Source: Escherichia coli | GTDB lineage: Bacteria; Pseudomonadota; Gammaproteobacteria; Enterobacterales; Enterobacteriaceae | Reading direction: 5' to 3' (one strand) | NCBI RefSeq assembly: GCF_030013205.1 | Contig: NZ_CP122648.1 | DNA: 64,000 nucleotides | Shown: piece after piece, positions 1,633-56,383 of the stretch | Layout of the letters: every line of letters begins with the position of its first letter | Numbering within the stretch: position 1 is the first letter of the stretch | Translations under genes and position numbers: made by a program | The notes under the pieces: model-generated | What the model was told of the DNA's origin: nothing | Seen by the model: the letters and a program-made list of their open reading frames with translations, nothing else | The model's database searches: none

Positions 1633-4302
1633 TTAAGCCCCCTCCTTGTTACTAAATATCCAGCATTTCAATACCTCCTTCTCTCTGGCCTCGGCTATTC
1701 CCCTCCCGGCGTTCGCCTGTCTGGATACCTCGCTACGGACGGGCTTGTATCCAATCAGCGATCGAGAACGGCCAGCCTTGAGAAGCTTTATCATTTCGGG
1801 ATTGGTTTGGGTCTTCACGTGGTGAACGGCGGCAACCTGCTCAAGTTGCGGGATACTGACGGCAAACTCATTCTGCCGTCCCTTGCCAAAATGATTTACG
1901 CCGTATGCTGTGATGCCGTCCAGATAGTCGAACGCCTCCCAGAACGCCATCACTTCCGGCAAGTCATCCATTACCGCTTTAGCCTGCTCCTCTGCCATTC
2001 GCTCCAGTTCCAGACATGTGGCATCAAGCCATTCATCCGGGATATCAATAACGCATTTCAGCGCCCTGACCAGTGCAATTAGTTGCGCGTGATTTTTGGC
2101 AATACGCTGATGGCGAATATTCTCGCAACCGTAAAGGCGGGTTGTTTCAGAATCCGAGAGTGCCATAAACAGATCCATAATCGCCCGCTCCTGGCTTACT
2201 GCCCGATGGATAAAACCTGATACCTGCTCAACGGGGTAAAGCTCCAGCCGTTTTGCTGCCAGTCGGCTATCTGGTGAGTGGCGTTTTTTATCGGTGTATA
2301 TACGTACCAGACGCTCGATAATTGCCGATGAGGCGTTTACCGTGGCATTCTGCGCAATCACGACAGCCCCTTTAAAAACGGGGTCATATGTGGCGTTATC
2401 ATTAGTTTTAACACCACGTACCCCAATACCACCGCCGTTATAGAGGCTTTTCAGGTTATCAAAGTCAAACGCACCTCTTTTTTGCGCATTGTCCCCCCGG
2501 TCTGCTTCAATCAGAACAACAGGTAATCCGGCGACCTGTCCAAAAGTTCGCTTCCAGCCTGATTCCGATCCTTTGGTTGGATCAACACCTTCATAGTTGT
2601 CACGGCCACACAAACGCCAACAAAAATCAATCAGCGTTGTTTTACCCGTTCCAGGCTCTCCGGTAATCTCAAGAAAAGGGTAAGACGTGTTTTTCTGCCT
2701 GATTTGTTCGCTGAACAACGAACCCAGCCAGAAGGCCAGGGTAATAATTCCCTTTTCACCAAAAGCCAGCCAGAGATCTTCCACCCAGGATATTGTGAAT
2801 TTATCCGGTTTTTTATAGTTAATCTGCAATATTGGTTTTTTATTCAATGGTTTTGCGTTTATGCCATCAATTTCAAAATAATCCTCTTCATTGATTTCGT
2901 AGGTTTTACCATTACAAACCGCGACATCATTAAACAGCCACGCGCCAATCTCTTTGTTGTATCCGATAAAATCCTGACCGATAACATTTTTTATTGCGGG
3001 AAGGTCATTTTTTATTAATGCATCAAGGTGCGCAGTCGTTCCGGTATAAATACCGCCTTTTGCCACATGCAACAGGCGTTTTTTAAATTCAGATGCGGAT
3101 GTTAATTGTCCTGATGTAAAGGTGTTTTTCACCGTCGCACCATCCGGGAACGTAACACGGAAGTAATACCATGCTTCATCCGTGTCATTGTTTCGAATGT
3201 AATAAAGCGGCGCCGGGTTACAGTTTGCGATTTCTTTTACAGCGCCGGATTCCTTAAGTGCAATTTTGCGCGCTTCATCTTCGTCAACATTTCGCTCATT
3301 TATGACGCGTTCAACAGCCTTCATATGGCGCTCAATATCCAGTTTGAACCAGAAAACACGGTTATCAAAAGTAAAATGAAATTCCTTTCGCTCACGAAAG
3401 GAAAACATTATCAGCGCCTTATCTCTCGGAGATTTTGCCAGCAATAAATCACCGTAATAACGGTATCTTTTCACATCATGGCCACGCAGCTTTCCGGCGA
3501 TGTGTAAATCATTCCAGTCGCGTTTATTGCTGTTTTTTCCTGGTAACGCCGCTGCCGTTCTCCAGCCGTCTTCGGCGCTGCGTTCTGCATGTTTTTTCGC
3601 ATAACGCTCACCCGCACGCCCGTTATCCAGCGCCCACACGATAACCGGACGGGGATTATCCCCGCACAGCTTCGCCAGCTCTTCCAGCGCCTTATCAGGG
3701 TAGTTTACGGCAGACATGACAGAAACGGCCGCAATGCCATTCTGGTTAAGGCTGATGGCATCAAAGATACCCTCACAAATCCAGATTTCTTTGGCCTTGC
3801 TTAAATCATCTCCCGGATAAGCCCACCACAACCCCTTGTAGCTGCCGGAAAAATTCGCCTTGCGCGCGAAGCGTTCCGGTCGGTCTATGATGCGCTCCCA
3901 CCACACGCCGTCAGCCAGTGTAAAACGCACAGTAGCGGCCTGTTCGCCGCTTTCCTTGTCCTGGTATCGCTCCTGAGTAAATGCTCCCTTCAGTGGCTCC
4001 ACAGCAATATTGCGTGCTTCCAGAAGATAAGCTGTCGCCGCTGCGTATGGATTGTCTTTCGTGCTGATATAGCGATCTGACCATGATGAAAACACATCCG
4101 GGTAAAGTTCTTTGGTCAACAGGTCTGTACCGCATTTATTTTCGCGCCCACAGTGCACGATGTACGGCCTTTCAAGGCTGGTAAAGAGCTCCTTCTTTCC
4201 ACATTGCGGACAAACACCATACCGGAGGTAGTTATTTTCTTCTTTGAAGTTGTAATCACGGATAAGACGGTTAATAATCTCTTTTCTGGTGTTATGTTTC
4301 AT
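1633..4302 (-). CDS. replicative primase-helicase (N-terminal zinc ribbon, TOPRIM-like primase core, C-terminal P-loop NTPase)
   Basis: 889 aa; CPQCG...HCGREN zinc motif, WICEGIFDAISL, Walker A GEPGTGKTT; stop lies 2 nt from integrase start. Confidence 0.8.
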   Translation of the reverse strand: MKHNTRKEIINRLIRDYNFKEENNYLRYGVCPQCGKKELFTSLERPYIVHCGRENKCGTDLLTKELYPDVFSSWSDRYISTKDNPYAAATAYLLEARNIAVEPLKGAFTQERYQDKESGEQAATVRFTLADGVWWERIIDRPERFARKANFSGSYKGLWWAYPGDDLSKAKEIWICEGIFDAISLNQNGIAAVSVMSAVNYPDKALEELAKLCGDNPRPVIVWALDNGRAGERYAKKHAERSAEDGWRTAAALPGKNSNKRDWNDLHIAGKLRGHDVKRYRYYGDLLLAKSPRDKALIMFSFRERKEFHFTFDNRVFWFKLDIERHMKAVERVINERNVDEDEARKIALKESGAVKEIANCNPAPLYYIRNNDTDEAWYYFRVTFPDGATVKNTFTSGQLTSASEFKKRLLHVAKGGIYTGTTAHLDALIKNDLPAIKNVIGQDFIGYNKEIGAWLFNDVAVCNGKTYEINEEDYFEIDGINAKPLNKKPILQINYKKPDKFTISWVEDLWLAFGEKGIITLAFWLGSLFSEQIRQKNTSYPFLEITGEPGTGKTTLIDFCWRLCGRDNYEGVDPTKGSESGWKRTFGQVAGLPVVLIEADRGDNAQKRGAFDFDNLKSLYNGGGIGVRGVKTNDNATYDPVFKGAVVIAQNATVNASSAIIERLVRIYTDKKRHSPDSRLAAKRLELYPVEQVSGFIHRAVSQERAIMDLFMALSDSETTRLYGCENIRHQRIAKNHAQLIALVRALKCVIDIPDEWLDATCLELERMAEEQAKAVMDDLPEVMAFWEAFDYLDGITAYGVNHFGKGRQNEFAVSIPQLEQVAAVHHVKTQTNPEMIKLLKAGRSRSLIGYKPVRSEVSRQANAGRGIAEAREKEVLKCWIFSNKEGA

Positions 4303-54298: not shown

Positions 54299-54326
54299 AC
54301 AAAAAAAGCGCCTTATCGGCGCTTCA
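54299..54326 (-). terminator. intrinsic terminator (AGCGCC-loop-GGCGCT, T7 on minus strand) after 89-aa ORF
   Basis: seen in sequence. Confidence 0.6.
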
Positions 54327-54332
54327 AAAGTA

Positions 54333-54602
54333 TCAATTGTTGCTGTGTATTAATCGCCAACCACGAACATATGCTTCATAGGCATCTCTGTGCCTTACAG
54401 TTCCAGCCTGGCTAAACGGAATGTTAGCTAAAACTAAATCATTCTGAGCCATAGCGCGTCCTTCAAGCGCATCTTTTATGCCTAGCTCAAAAGCACAGGC
54501 AGCGCATTTGTGCCGACCTTCTTGTCCTTGATATTCAGGGAGAGACAGAAATGTTGGATTATAACGATGAGGGTTCTTGCAAATACCTGTTTTAGCCCGC
54601 AC
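54333..54602 (-). CDS. hypothetical 89-aa protein with Cys/His cluster (CKNPH...RHKCAAC); possible zinc-binding
   Basis: ORF track; sits beside cos in the tin/old position; own terminator. Confidence 0.45.
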   Translation of the reverse strand: MRAKTGICKNPHRYNPTFLSLPEYQGQEGRHKCAACAFELGIKDALEGRAMAQNDLVLANIPFSQAGTVRHRDAYEAYVRGWRLIHSNN

Positions 54603-54619
54603 TTTATTTACCTCATAGG

Positions 54620-54766
54620 AAAAATATGCGTGCCTTTACAGAGGTGCGTGTAAGCAATAAAATATACGACGCACATTTTGATTTACTTCGGAAGGCACGC
54701 ATATCAGGTTAAGTGAGTCCGACCGAGTTTTACGCCCCAATAGTTGCTGCTATTGGGGCGTTTTGC
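54620..54766 (+). ncRNA. candidate structured small RNA: 12-bp outer stem (TATGCGTGCCTT/AAGGCACGCATA) enclosing an inner hairpin, then 12-bp-stem intrinsic terminator with T4
   Basis: seen in sequence; no ORF; divergent from 89-aa gene. Confidence 0.35.
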
Positions 54767-54966
54767 ATGGACAATGCCGCGCAATTATCTTGTCGCTCAC
54801 AATGCGAACGATCTTACAAAAAGGCACATTACTGTCAAGATAATTGATCGTTTTAATCGATAGATAATAGACAATCTATTTGTTTAACAGATCGATTATT
54901 GAAGTAAGTGTGCCAAGTGGAATGATACTGTCTCTATAAACGTGAGCATTTTTCGCGCAGATGCTT

Positions 54967-55278
54967 TTACTCAGGAAATAACGCCCGGATATTCCCAGCC
55001 ATCTGGCTGGTTATCTTAGCCACTGGTGCAGACTGTGCTTCAAACTTTTTTGAGCTGATTTGTGTCACAGGTAACATCTCATCATCAGCCCATGCGGCCA
55101 GTCGGTAAGCCTCTGCCGGATTCGTCTTCAGAAGTGCCAGCCCGGCCAGAAAAGCCACGCGTTGGCCGCTTTTGCGGGCTTCTGGTGTAAGGCTGTCCAG
55201 CCAGGCGCATGCTTCTCCTTCGTTCTTGACGGCAGCTGGCTTCAGATAGAAACTTATCCGTCTGGTTGGTGTTGTCAT
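54967..55278 (-). CDS. ParR-like DNA-binding adaptor, about 104 aa from MTTPTRRISFYLK
   Basis: resembles remembered plasmid R1 ParR N-terminus (RRTIAFKL...LDSIPQGERSRLNRAALTAGLALY vs RRISFYLK...LDSLTPEARKSGQRVAFLAGLALL); AAGGAG inside parM 3' end. Confidence 0.6.
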   Translation of the reverse strand: MTTPTRRISFYLKPAAVKNEGEACAWLDSLTPEARKSGQRVAFLAGLALLKTNPAEAYRLAAWADDEMLPVTQISSKKFEAQSAPVAKITSQMAGNIRALFPE

Positions 55279-55282
55279 TGGT

Positions 55283-56242
55283 TTACTCCTTGTCCATTGC
55301 GTACAGCCCATTAACCAGAGCAAACTGTGGCACCCCGTCCGCGATGAAAGTCGCATTAACTCCGCAGGCTTCGCGGATAGCGGGTGCCACAATCTCCGCC
55401 CCGCCACCGACAACCATCACCCGCCCGTAACCCGAAAAACCCGCCAGCGCGCGGATCACGCGTTGTTTCAGTGTTTCTTCCTTTTCACGAATAACCGCCA
55501 TCAGGCTGGCGTAATGCGCGTCATTGTGGATGTGCTGGCGCAGCCAGGCTTCATCATGGCGATGTTCGATAATGGTATTGGCGATGTGGTGACTGGTACG
55601 CATACCGTTAGTGGCCATCACCGACAGTACGGCATCGGCCATCAGGGAAACGCCTACGTGTGGATCGCAAAACACCTGGCTGATACCTGCCAGTTGTCCC
55701 TGAACCTTTGCCACATCCAGCGTGGTTCCGCCTAAATCCACAATCAGCAGGGATTCAAACGGACTCATGTCAGCCAGTGCTTTAAAGCCAGCCGGAATGG
55801 ATTCAGGCATAACCCGTACGTTACGGATAGTGAATGCTTCGCCGTTCTGGTACTCCACCGGGCGCATGACGTTCGCTTTTTTGCGGTTGATGTTGGCCAT
55901 GTCCGGCTGTGCGTTTGTGTCGAAATATTCGCTCAGTGGCAGGGTGACAACCACATCCACTTCCTGTGGTGTGATGCCTGATTTGACCAGCGCGTGATGA
56001 ATGGCAATGACATTCACATCGCTGTACTGGTATTGCGTGTCGGTCGTCTGGACAAAGCGATCGCTGACCGGATCAAAACCATAGCGCACGCCATCAAGCA
56101 TGTAGTTCGCGGGCTGCGTGCCACCGAACGGCGCAGACCATTCCGACTTGAAGCTGTTCGGGCTGATGGCGTTGCGGCGTTCGCCGTTCTCAGTCCATGC
56201 CAGCTTGATGTTGGTGGAGCCGTCATCGATACAAATTTTCAT
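55283..56242 (-). CDS. ParM/StbA-like actin-family ATPase
   Basis: 319 aa; N-terminal MKICIDDGSTNIKLAW and LIVDLGGTTLD phosphate-binding motifs as in plasmid R1 ParM. Confidence 0.75.
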   Translation of the reverse strand: MKICIDDGSTNIKLAWTENGERRNAISPNSFKSEWSAPFGGTQPANYMLDGVRYGFDPVSDRFVQTTDTQYQYSDVNVIAIHHALVKSGITPQEVDVVVTLPLSEYFDTNAQPDMANINRKKANVMRPVEYQNGEAFTIRNVRVMPESIPAGFKALADMSPFESLLIVDLGGTTLDVAKVQGQLAGISQVFCDPHVGVSLMADAVLSVMATNGMRTSHHIANTIIEHRHDEAWLRQHIHNDAHYASLMAVIREKEETLKQRVIRALAGFSGYGRVMVVGGGAEIVAPAIREACGVNATFIADGVPQFALVNGLYAMDKE

Positions 56243-56272
56243 GTCGCTTTTCCTTATGTTGATTAATTAATC

Positions 56273-56383
56273 GCTTACGGGATTCTGAAATCCCGTTTTT
56301 GCCTGTTTTATGCGCGCTTCATATATCGCGGCGCGTTTTTTGCTCATTTACGGGATTTGTGAATCCCGTTTCTGTCTGTTTTT
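56273..56383. repeat. two about 37-bp direct repeats, each a hairpin followed by a T-run (ACGGGATTCTGAAATCCCGT TTTTGCCTGTTTT; ACGGGATTTGTGAATCCCGT TTCTGTCTGTTTTTT)
   Basis: seen in sequence upstream of parM-like gene, second copy inside 3' end of A. Confidence 0.5.

What the first reader, a model, noticed from the sequence alone, without database searches (positions are those of the whole stretch)
54620..54766. Candidate structured small RNA next to the 89-aa ORF near cos
A 12-bp outer stem encloses an inner hairpin and is followed by a 12-bp-stem intrinsic terminator with a T-run, all on the plus strand with no ORF. This gene-free, highly structured segment lies in the accessory region between cos and the par-like genes.
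Basis: seen in the sequence. Interest (0 to 1): 0.4.

Follow-up and report, generated by a model that had tools for sequence, protein, structure and literature searches.

The report
Antisense RNA and structured leader cassette
The hairpin-rich "empty" stretch in this P2-like prophage is most likely the folded leader of the neighbouring 89-residue gene's mRNA, with a small regulatory RNA of about 97 bases made from the opposite strand inside it; the arrangement is a familiar kind of control but belongs to no described RNA family.

Summary
Bases 54620-54766 fold far better than shuffles (z = -6.0): a 14-bp outer stem, an inner hairpin, then a 13-bp GC-rich hairpin with a T-run on the + strand.

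A + strand small RNA is well supported. In 47 distinct homologous loci, every one has TTTAC[A/T]-17 nt-TAnnnT on that strand, at 54635-54663 in the window. Every one also has a downstream hairpin with a pyrimidine/U tail on that strand only. Wobble pairs in that hairpin favour the + strand.

However, the promoter lies inside the big stem-loop, so the RNA starts near 54670 and ends near 54764 (about 97 nt). It cannot contain the outer stem.

The outer stem and inner hairpin belong to the roughly 200-nt 5' leader of the minus-strand mRNA of the 89-aa ORF. That mRNA has its own conserved promoter (54838-54811) and, in most lineages, a hairpin over its ribosome-binding site.

I infer a cis-antisense pair that represses the 89-aa gene. 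The cassette is portable and found in accessory regions of several phage types. No Rfam, Pfam, NCBIfam or PADLOC family covers it. No transcript data were available.

The parts
54333..54602 (-). 89-aa ORF (GTG start at 54602; Shine-Dalgarno GAGGT at 54610-54614). This is the gene that the cassette regulates.
   Evidence: ORF list. Matches phrog_3941 at E = 6e-49. The family has 491 representatives at E <= 1e-3. No Pfam, NCBIfam or PADLOC hit.
54305..54325 (-). Intrinsic terminator of the 89-aa mRNA: 8-bp GC-rich stem followed by TTTTTGTTT.
   Evidence: Terminator scan and direct reading of the sequence.
54603..54804 (-). Predicted 5' leader of the 89-aa mRNA, about 200 nt. The 5' end is inferred from the promoter, not measured.
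   Evidence: The promoter at 54838-54811 is conserved in L003. The leader folds with z = -4.5. Homologous leaders in 47 loci.
54811..54838 (-). Sense promoter TTGACA-16-TAAGAT. A GATC (54810-54813) overlaps the end of the -10.
   Evidence: Promoter scan, 10 of 12 matches. The same hexamers sit at the same place in L003 (TTGACA / TAGGAT). GATC positions.
54624..54704 (-). Long stem (arms 54624-54637 and 54691-54704, 14 bp) enclosing the inner hairpin (54639-54680). Read here as a structure of the minus-strand leader RNA.
   Evidence: Folds. Arms differ completely between lineages yet stay complementary. In the Pantoea-like subgroup 95.3% of cells are paired, against 33-53% when partners are slid. 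That subgroup has two columns of sense-strand U.G, in 12 of 22 and 20 of 22 sequences.
54635..54663 (+). Antisense promoter TTTACA-17-TAAAAT, embedded in the long stem (-35) and the loop (-10).
   Evidence: Promoter scan. TTTAC[A/T]-17 nt-TAnnnT in 47 of 47 distinct homologous leaders, with 11 different -10 hexamers and variable spacers. These are among the few invariant alignment columns. It is the only match to the pattern in the 64-kb window, 0.21 expected.
54670..54764 (+). Predicted cis-antisense small RNA, about 95-100 nt. Both ends are inferred. It is fully complementary to the 5' half of the leader.
   Evidence: Bounded by the promoter and the terminator. As a 100-nt RNA it folds to a weak 5' hairpin, a U-run and the terminator hairpin, z = -4.2.
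54732..54764 (+). Terminator hairpin of the antisense RNA (13-bp stem 54732-54744 / 54749-54761, loop UGCU) with T-run 54761-54764, preceded by GTTTT.
   Evidence: The hairpin is present in all lineages with differing sequences. It is more stable on this strand in 34 of 46 sequences. Interior wobbles number 10 on this strand against 3 on the other, among 32 distinct helices. The tail holds 4.7 U per 10 nt on this strand and 0.6 on the other.
54840..54899 (.). Imperfect 26-nt inverted repeat just upstream of the sense -35. It is a candidate operator or partition site; its function was not tested.
   Evidence: Repeat search. The region is conserved at 74.6% in the diverged L003-type prophages. 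It is absent from the cassette in other phage types.

Best explanation
The segment is the control region of the 89-aa gene, organised as a cis-antisense pair.

Shown by sequence and comparison:
1. A minus-strand promoter (54838-54811) drives an mRNA with a leader of about 200 nt. The leader folds into a long stem enclosing an inner hairpin. In most lineages a hairpin covers the ribosome-binding site.
2. A sigma-70-type promoter on the + strand sits inside that stem-loop (54635-54663) and points the other way.
3. The GC-rich hairpin with T-run at 54732-54764 works as a terminator only on the + strand.

Inferred:
4. The + strand therefore yields an RNA of about 97 nt (roughly 54670-54764). It is perfectly complementary to the leader's 5' half, including the 5' arm of the long stem.
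5. Pairing of this RNA with the leader keeps the 89-aa protein off. It could do so by releasing the 3' arm to occlude the translation start, by creating a long duplex for RNase III, or by collision of the two converging transcriptions.

The cassette travels as a unit among accessory regions of temperate phages.
For: Context:
- The window holds a P2-like (Xuanwuvirus) prophage. The segment lies in the variable region between replication gene A (gpA) and portal gene Q (gpQ), next to cos. PMC9122126 (read) describes this region as a hotspot for anti-phage systems.
- The 89-aa ORF is a real, widespread family.

Antisense RNA:
- The antisense promoter is conserved in 47 of 47 diverse leaders, with fixed 17-nt spacing and invariant T1, A2 and T6 of the -10. 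The spacer and the rest of the -10 vary.
- In different lineages the -10 falls in unpaired loops of the leader, so RNA pairing does not explain its conservation.
- Terminator hairpin: there are 32 distinct helices, and wobbles favour the + strand 10 to 3.
- It is more stable on the + strand in 34 of 46 sequences.
- The U-rich tail is on the + strand only.

Sense leader:
- The long stem and inner hairpin are kept with at least six unrelated arm sequences.
- z-scores run from -2.0 to -5.8 in ten lineages.
- In the subgroup alignment 95.3% of cells are paired and the covariation score is 0.181, against 0.088 in shuffles (0 of 500 reach it). U.G columns lie on the sense strand.
- The sense strand is more stable in 36 of 47 sequences.

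Mechanism:
- With the antisense-covered part forced single-stranded, the modelled accessibility of the start codon falls in 18 of 23 lineages. The mean unpaired probability of the Shine-Dalgarno falls from 0.30 to 0.22.
Against: - No transcript, 5' end or 3' end was observed. Both RNAs are predictions.
- The terminator tail is weak in many lineages (UUUCCCUUAU; TTTT then GCAT in the window).
- In the window itself the long-stem segment folds slightly better on the + strand (-36.4 against -33.6 kcal/mol). Sequestration of the Shine-Dalgarno is only partial there (P unpaired about 0.4). The strand assignment of the stem therefore rests on relatives.
- A covariance model built from the Pantoea-like subgroup finds the window element only at 10.7 bits, E = 1.9. 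RNAalifold gave no consensus on the all-lineage alignment. Homology of the window's RNA element thus rests on synteny, promoter geometry and architecture.
- The sequences are related, so counts such as 47 of 47 or 10 against 3 are not independent events.
- The direction of regulation (repression) is a thermodynamic inference.
Confidence: 0.68

Rival explanations
1. Sense-only riboregulator. The whole segment is just a structured 5' leader of the 89-aa mRNA, such as a protein-binding, thermosensing or attenuating leader. The + strand 'promoter' and 'terminator' are by-products of RNA-level constraints, and no antisense RNA is made.
For: The leader structure is real, conserved and sense-biased. 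GUAAAG, the complement of the -35, is itself part of the 3' arm of the long stem, so part of its conservation could be structural.
Against: The invariant positions coincide with the key sigma-70 contacts (TTTAC of the -35; T1, A2 and T6 of the -10) at a fixed 17-nt spacing. The -10 lies in unpaired, otherwise variable loops. The hairpin upstream in the leader carries wobbles and a U tail on the antisense strand, and is followed by an A-rich tract on the sense strand.
Confidence: 0.12
2. A free-standing + strand small RNA spans 54620-54766 and includes the outer stem, the inner hairpin and the terminator.
For: The + strand fold is excellent (z = -6.0). In the window the + strand version of the stem is marginally more stable.
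Against: No promoter-like site lies upstream of 54620 on the + strand; that DNA is the 89-aa coding sequence. The only conserved + strand promoter lies inside the stem-loop. In relatives the stem has U.G pairs on the opposite strand, which are A.C mismatches on this one.
Confidence: 0.05
3. DNA-level element. The inverted repeats act as double-stranded or cruciform DNA, for example a protein-binding operator, a ParR centromere, a cos-accessory site or a recombination site.
For: The segment lies between cos and parMR. An inverted repeat cannot by itself distinguish DNA from RNA function. There are further palindromes at 54840-54899.
Against: The same hairpins accompany the small gene where there is no cos or par nearby: next to lysis or antiterminator (Q) genes, next to BstA, and next to umuDC. 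Arm sequences differ completely between lineages, which fits helix conservation rather than a conserved protein site. The strand-asymmetric G.U patterns are not expected for double-stranded DNA sites.
Confidence: 0.04
4. Insulator terminator plus chance structure. The hairpin/T-run merely stops + strand read-through from the late (terminase-portal) operon, and the stem-loop has no function.
For: The hairpin is a plausible + strand terminator located downstream of + strand late genes.
Against: The hairpin and stem-loop keep fixed positions relative to the small gene in unrelated genomic contexts. z-scores and covariation exclude chance.
Confidence: 0.04

Closest known systems
IS10 RNA-OUT / RNA-IN (Tn10 transposase control)
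   Same: Two face-to-face promoters. A small antisense RNA is transcribed from within the 5' region of the mRNA it controls. GATC (Dam) sites lie at the sense promoter -10: the window has TAAGATC and relatives have TAGGATC.
   Different: RNA-OUT covers the ribosome-binding site of RNA-IN with about 35 nt of overlap. Here the antisense ends about 65 nt upstream of the ribosome-binding site and overlaps about 95 nt of leader. No transposase is involved. The Dam dependence here is only a sequence observation. The IS10 properties are from my own knowledge.
Plasmid R1 CopA / CopT (repA leader)
   Same: An antisense RNA of about 90 nt comes from a promoter inside a long mRNA leader. It targets a structured region well upstream of the regulated start codon, and the duplex is a substrate for RNase III.
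   Different: CopA acts through a leader peptide (tap) to which repA translation is coupled. No conserved leader ORF was found here: the short ORF in the L005 leader is absent in relatives (sequences). The regulated product is not a replication protein. The CopA properties are from my own knowledge.
Type I toxin-antitoxin loci (hok/sok, symE/SymR, tisB/IstR-1, ralR/RalA)
   Same: A small protein gene on mobile elements has a long, highly structured leader with an occluded ribosome-binding site, and a small antisense RNA from its own promoter. SymE and RalR (PMC4041452; abstract seen in the listing) show that such toxins need not be membrane peptides. IstR-1 also binds far upstream of the ribosome-binding site.
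   Different: Toxicity of the 89-aa protein is untested. The protein is hydrophilic with conserved Cys/His and no hydrophobic stretch. The Rfam sok model does not match this element; its hit in L052 is a separate neighbouring hok/sok locus. No mok-like overlapping reading frame.
Phage antisense regulators (P22 sar/ant, P1 c4/ant, lambda OOP/cII)
   Same: A phage-encoded small antisense RNA controls an accessory or regulatory phage gene. Rfam sar and ctRNA_pGA1 give weak partial matches to the terminator hairpin only (22 bits, gathering scores 43 and 45).
   Different: The matches are below threshold and confined to a generic hairpin. The sar RNA covers the ant ribosome-binding site. The regulated protein has no similarity to antirepressors.

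Membership tests
Cis-encoded antisense sRNA / mRNA-leader pair (generic class) | A promoter on the opposite strand, inside the transcribed leader of the target gene | tested here: met
   TTTACA-17-TAAAAT at 54635-54663. The same geometry occurs in 47 of 47 homologous leaders.
Cis-encoded antisense sRNA / mRNA-leader pair (generic class) | A defined 3' end (intrinsic terminator) for the antisense RNA | tested here: met
   13-bp GC-rich hairpin with TTTT at 54732-54764. The U/pyrimidine tail and wobble bias are on this strand across lineages. The tail is weak in several lineages.
Cis-encoded antisense sRNA / mRNA-leader pair (generic class) | Both transcripts exist and overlap in vivo | not testable with these tools
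   No expression data were available. Needs a northern blot, RACE or dRNA-seq on a lysogen.
Type I toxin-antitoxin system | The protein is toxic when expressed without the RNA | not testable with these tools
   Needs an expression experiment.
Type I toxin-antitoxin system | The toxin is a small hydrophobic membrane peptide (classical families) | tested here: not met
   The 89-aa product is hydrophilic with no hydrophobic stretch. The AF2 model (pLDDT 83) has short helices. Non-membrane exceptions such as SymE and RalR exist.
Type I toxin-antitoxin system | Structured toxin mRNA leader that occludes the ribosome-binding site | tested here: inconclusive
   A clear Shine-Dalgarno hairpin with compensatory changes is seen in most lineages. 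In the window only a 4-bp contact forms, with P(unpaired) about 0.4.
Rfam families (sok RF01794, sar RF00262, ctRNA_pGA1 RF00236, Spot_42 RF00021 and all others) | Score at or above the family's gathering threshold | tested here: not met
   The best scores in the window are 19-22 bits, against thresholds of 43-80. There is no hit on the element in ten related loci at gathering thresholds.
The RNA family defined here by the Pantoea-like subgroup (model R1) | A significant covariance-model match | tested here: inconclusive
   It is the only hit in the 64-kb window and lies at the right place and strand, but scores 10.7 bits, E = 1.9, and is partly mis-aligned.
Rho-independent terminator | GC-rich stem-loop followed at once by a U-run on the transcribed strand | tested here: met
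   54732-54761 stem with TTTT on the + strand. On the minus strand the hairpin is followed by an A-rich tract, so it is not bidirectional.
Hfq-binding sRNA module | A U-rich tract before the terminator hairpin plus a 3' U tail, and Hfq dependence | tested here: inconclusive
   GUUUU precedes the hairpin in all lineages and a U/C tail follows it. Binding and dependence cannot be tested here.
ParMRC centromere (parC) | An array of ParR-binding iterons | not tested
   54624-54766 holds no iterons. Palindromes at 54840-54899 were not compared with known parC sites.

The most novel reading that the evidence does not exclude
The cassette is a new, self-contained type I toxin-antitoxin-like or abortive-infection module. 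In this reading the widespread Cys/His small protein is a harmful effector or sensor. Its domain is elsewhere fused to DndB/DGQHR, HNH, WYL and NOV_C domains and sits inside restriction-modification islands. An antisense RNA holds it silent, and Dam-sensitive promoters allow release when unmethylated or replicating foreign DNA appears or when the prophage is lost.
Probability: 0.2. Interest if true: 0.7.

Novelty: new member of a known kind. Interest (0 to 1): 0.45.

Why it matters
- The finding turns an unannotated 'gap' in the anti-phage hotspot of P2-like prophages into a defined regulatory unit with testable coordinates for two promoters, two transcripts and a switchable leader.
- The same unit recurs in accessory regions of phages of Escherichia, Proteus, Pantoea and in AT-rich IMG/VR viral contigs of unidentified host. 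It defines an RNA family absent from Rfam.
- It also flags an uncharacterised protein family with no Pfam or NCBIfam model and 491 representatives. The fusions and neighbours of that family point to DNA-modification or defence biology.
- Tight antisense control of such a gene suggests its product is harmful or needed only transiently. That makes it a sensible candidate when screening for new defence, anti-defence or addiction functions.

Tried and rejected
Searches that led nowhere:
- Rfam found nothing above threshold in the window (E-value mode) or in ten related loci at gathering thresholds.
- The plasmid collection gave no match.
- The word-indexed protein search found only two near-identical proteins. 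The full HMMER scan was needed.
- PADLOC, Pfam and NCBIfam gave no hit for the 89-aa protein.
- Two papers on P2 hotspots do not mention an antisense or non-coding RNA.

Analyses that failed or were weak:
- RNAalifold on the all-lineage MAFFT alignment returned no structure, because the stems are not sequence-alignable across lineages. I used per-sequence folds and a subgroup alignment instead.
- The covariance model from the subgroup detects the window element only weakly.
- Within-type SNPs (0-4 per 600 nt) avoid the stems and promoter hexamers but are too few to be informative.

Ideas considered and dropped:
- A leader peptide as in CopA/tap. The short ORF in L005 is not conserved.
- LexA control. 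The perfect LexA boxes upstream in Pantoea belong to a neighbouring umuDC operon, and the window has none.
- A single-strand-DNA promoter hairpin of the plasmid leading-region type. This phage packages double-stranded DNA, and nothing specific supports the idea.
- A cos-related or par-related role. The cassette occurs without either.

Full report
**1. The observation**

- A 14-bp outer stem: 54624-54637 pairs with 54691-54704.
- An inner hairpin within 54639-54680.
- A 13-bp GC-rich hairpin: 54732-54744 pairs with 54749-54761, followed by TTTT.

As RNA the + strand folds at -56.9 kcal/mol, against -35.2 +/- 3.6 for shuffles (z = -6.0). The complementary strand also folds well (z = -4.5 for the 216-nt leader). 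No Rfam family reaches its threshold. The best matches are 19-22 bits on the generic terminator hairpin.

**2. Context**

The window is an E. coli chromosome carrying a P2-like prophage of the genus Xuanwuvirus. The region is 99-100% identical in 165 of 5,426 complete E. coli genomes, always chromosomal.

The gene order is:
- terminase and portal (+ strand);
- the cos region;
- an 89-aa ORF, 54333-54602 (- strand);
- the structured segment;
- ParR/StbB and ParM (- strand);
- the gpA replication protein (- strand).

The interval between replication gene A (gpA) and portal gene Q (gpQ) is the known anti-phage hotspot of P2-like phages. That paper notes that about a quarter of P2-like phages carry a partition system there (PMC9122126, read).

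The 89-aa ORF has a Shine-Dalgarno (GAGGT) 7 nt before its GTG and its own terminator at 54325-54305. A good minus-strand promoter, TTGACA-16-TAAGAT, lies at 54838-54811. The structured segment is therefore inside a predicted 5' leader of about 200 nt.

**3. Relatives**

A diverged prophage (L003; protein 59% identical) has the same layout with different stem sequences. Protein-guided searches then recovered the gene in Proteus, Pantoea and many IMG/VR and metagenome contigs. This gave 47 distinct leaders.

All 47 share this order of elements:
- sense promoter;
- a 5' hairpin;
- hairpin H1;
- an A-rich spacer (AAAAC);
- a long stem enclosing an inner hairpin;
- the invariant GTAAAG;
- in most lineages a hairpin that pairs the Shine-Dalgarno;
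- the start codon.

The genomic contexts differ:
- the P2 cos hotspot (window, L003);
- beside lysis or antiterminator (Q) genes of other phages (L004, L043, and L052 next to a hok/sok locus);
- beside BstA (L053);
- beside umuDC in Pantoea.

The cassette is therefore a portable unit tied to the small gene, not to cos or par.

**4. The + strand RNA**

Read on the antisense strand, every one of the 47 leaders has TTTAC[A/T], exactly 17 nt, then TAnnnT. There are eleven different -10 hexamers and widely differing spacers. These positions are among the few invariant alignment columns.

In different lineages the -10 falls in unpaired loops of the leader. Its conservation is therefore best explained at the DNA level, as a promoter. 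In the window the site is 54635-54663, which predicts a start near 54670. The pattern occurs once in 64 kb, with 0.21 expected.

Evidence on hairpin H1:
- It is present everywhere, with 32 distinct helix sequences.
- It is more stable on the antisense strand in 34 of 46 sequences.
- A strand-symmetric count of interior transition-type oppositions gives 10 that are G.U on the antisense strand, against 3 on the sense strand.
- It is followed by a U/pyrimidine-rich tail on the antisense strand (4.7 U per 10 nt) and by an A-rich tract on the sense strand (0.6 U per 10 nt).

H1 is therefore a terminator for the antisense RNA only. The predicted RNA, about 54670-54764, folds into a weakly structured 5' part, a U-run and the terminator (z = -4.2).

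**5. The outer stem belongs to the other strand**

The antisense -35 overlaps the + strand 5' arm of the outer stem, so the + strand RNA lacks that arm.

The long stem is kept across lineages with unrelated arm sequences:
- AUAUGCGUGCCUU / AAGGCACGCAUAU in the window;
- GAGGUGUCAUCU / AGAUGAACACCUC in the L003 type;
- CAGGG.../...CCCUG in the L004 type;
- GAAUGUUUUC / GUAAAGCGUUC in the Pantoea-like type;
- GGGCUUUAUU / AAGUAAAGCCC in the L053/L093 type (AT-rich IMG/VR and metagenome contigs of unidentified host).

For the Pantoea-like subgroup:
- 95.3% of cells are paired, against 33-53% when partners are slid.
- The covariation score is 0.181 against 0.088 in shuffles, and 0 of 500 shuffles reach it.
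- Two columns are U.G on the sense strand in 12 of 22 and 20 of 22 sequences. These would be A.C mismatches on the + strand.

Over the whole segment from H1 to the start codon, the sense strand is more stable in 36 of 47 sequences. Ten lineages give z from -2.0 to -5.8.

In the window alone the + strand is marginally more stable (-36.4 against -33.6). The strand assignment therefore comes from relatives.

**6. Mechanism (inferred)**

The antisense RNA is fully complementary to the leader from H1 through the 5' arm of the long stem.
- When that part is held single-stranded, the 3' arm is free.
- In models, the start codon then becomes less accessible in 18 of 23 lineages.
- The mean unpaired probability of the Shine-Dalgarno drops from 0.30 to 0.22.

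A duplex of about 95 bp would also be an RNase III substrate, and the two promoters face each other about 135 bp apart. I therefore favour negative control of the 89-aa gene by translation block, decay or transcriptional interference. I cannot say which dominates.

**7. The regulated protein**

The family has 491 representatives at E <= 1e-3. It has conserved C-x3-H and C-x2-C residues and an SQAG-x-x-RHK motif. It has no Pfam, NCBIfam or PADLOC hit and no structural relative. The AF2 model has pLDDT 83.

In other taxa the domain is fused to DndB/DGQHR, HNH_2, WYL and NOV_C domains. It also sits inside restriction-modification clusters. This points to DNA-modification or defence biology, but the function is unknown.

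**8. Comparison and novelty**

The arrangement works like classical cis-antisense controls: IS10 RNA-OUT/RNA-IN, R1 CopA/CopT, type I toxin-antitoxin loci and phage sar/ant. It is not a member of any curated family.

Defining features of type I systems that need experiments (toxicity, transcripts) could not be tested. The classical feature of a hydrophobic peptide toxin is not met.

I class it as a new member of a known kind. It is moderately interesting as a conserved, unannotated RNA-plus-small-protein cassette in a defence hotspot.

**9. Weak points**

- There are no expression data.
- The terminator U-tracts are weak in several lineages.
- A covariance model from one subgroup sees the window element only at E = 1.9.
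- The counts are not phylogenetically independent.

Noticed in passing
window 54810-54813 and 54848-54851; related loci at about -215, -180, -73 and -44 relative to the start codon: GATC (Dam) sites are about five-fold enriched in the cassette: 3.65 per 260 nt, against 0.67 expected from the flanks. They are positionally conserved near or over the sense promoter -10 (TAAGATC, TAGGATC) and, in most lineages, in the inner hairpin (GAGATCTC) around the antisense promoter. This suggests methylation-state control as in IS10 or finP.
   Followed up: partly
window 54840-54899: A 26-nt imperfect inverted repeat with nested ATCGAT/TAATCGAT palindromes lies just upstream of the sense -35. It is conserved in the diverged L003-type prophages but absent from the cassette in other phages. 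It may be an operator or a ParR-binding site downstream of parR.
   Followed up: partly
window 54333-54602 (-) and proteins P0027, P0041, P0042, P0048, P0054, P0101: The 89-aa protein belongs to a large uncharacterised family with conserved C-x3-H, C-x2-C and SQAG..RHK motifs. Its domain is fused to DndB/DGQHR, WYL, HNH_2 and NOV_C domains. In other contigs of unidentified host (L046, L048) it lies inside restriction-modification clusters.
   Followed up: partly
L135 (E. coli CH4793), equivalent to window 54673-54680: One genome has an IS1 inserted exactly at the predicted start of the antisense RNA. It separates both promoters from their products, so it is a natural knock-out of the cassette.
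   Followed up: partly
window 54967-56242 (-): A ParM/ParR (StbA/StbB) plasmid-partition pair sits in a chromosomally integrated P2-like prophage. Only 76 bp lie upstream of parM (56243-56318), and that stretch holds a hairpin with a T-run rather than an obvious iteron array. The presence of partition genes in this hotspot is already noted in PMC9122126.
   Followed up: no
sense leaders of most lineages, just 5' of hairpin H1 (alignment A4 columns about 58-68): A conserved AUAAGGGAA(A/G) lies on the sense RNA, which reads YUUCCCUUAU after the terminator on the antisense RNA. It is either a weak, interrupted U-tract or an SD-like or standby element of the mRNA. Unresolved.
   Followed up: no
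L052 3005-3333; L053 2886-3806: In other phages the cassette lies next to a bona fide hok/sok type I toxin-antitoxin locus (Rfam sok, 98 bits) or next to the abortive-infection gene bstA. This fits a location among addiction and defence cargo.
   Followed up: no
L003 2763-3050 (-): The diverged P2-like prophage carries an extra 95-aa hypothetical gene between the small gene and cos that the window lacks. RefSeq leaves the 92-aa homologue of the small gene (3117-3395) unannotated there.
   Followed up: no
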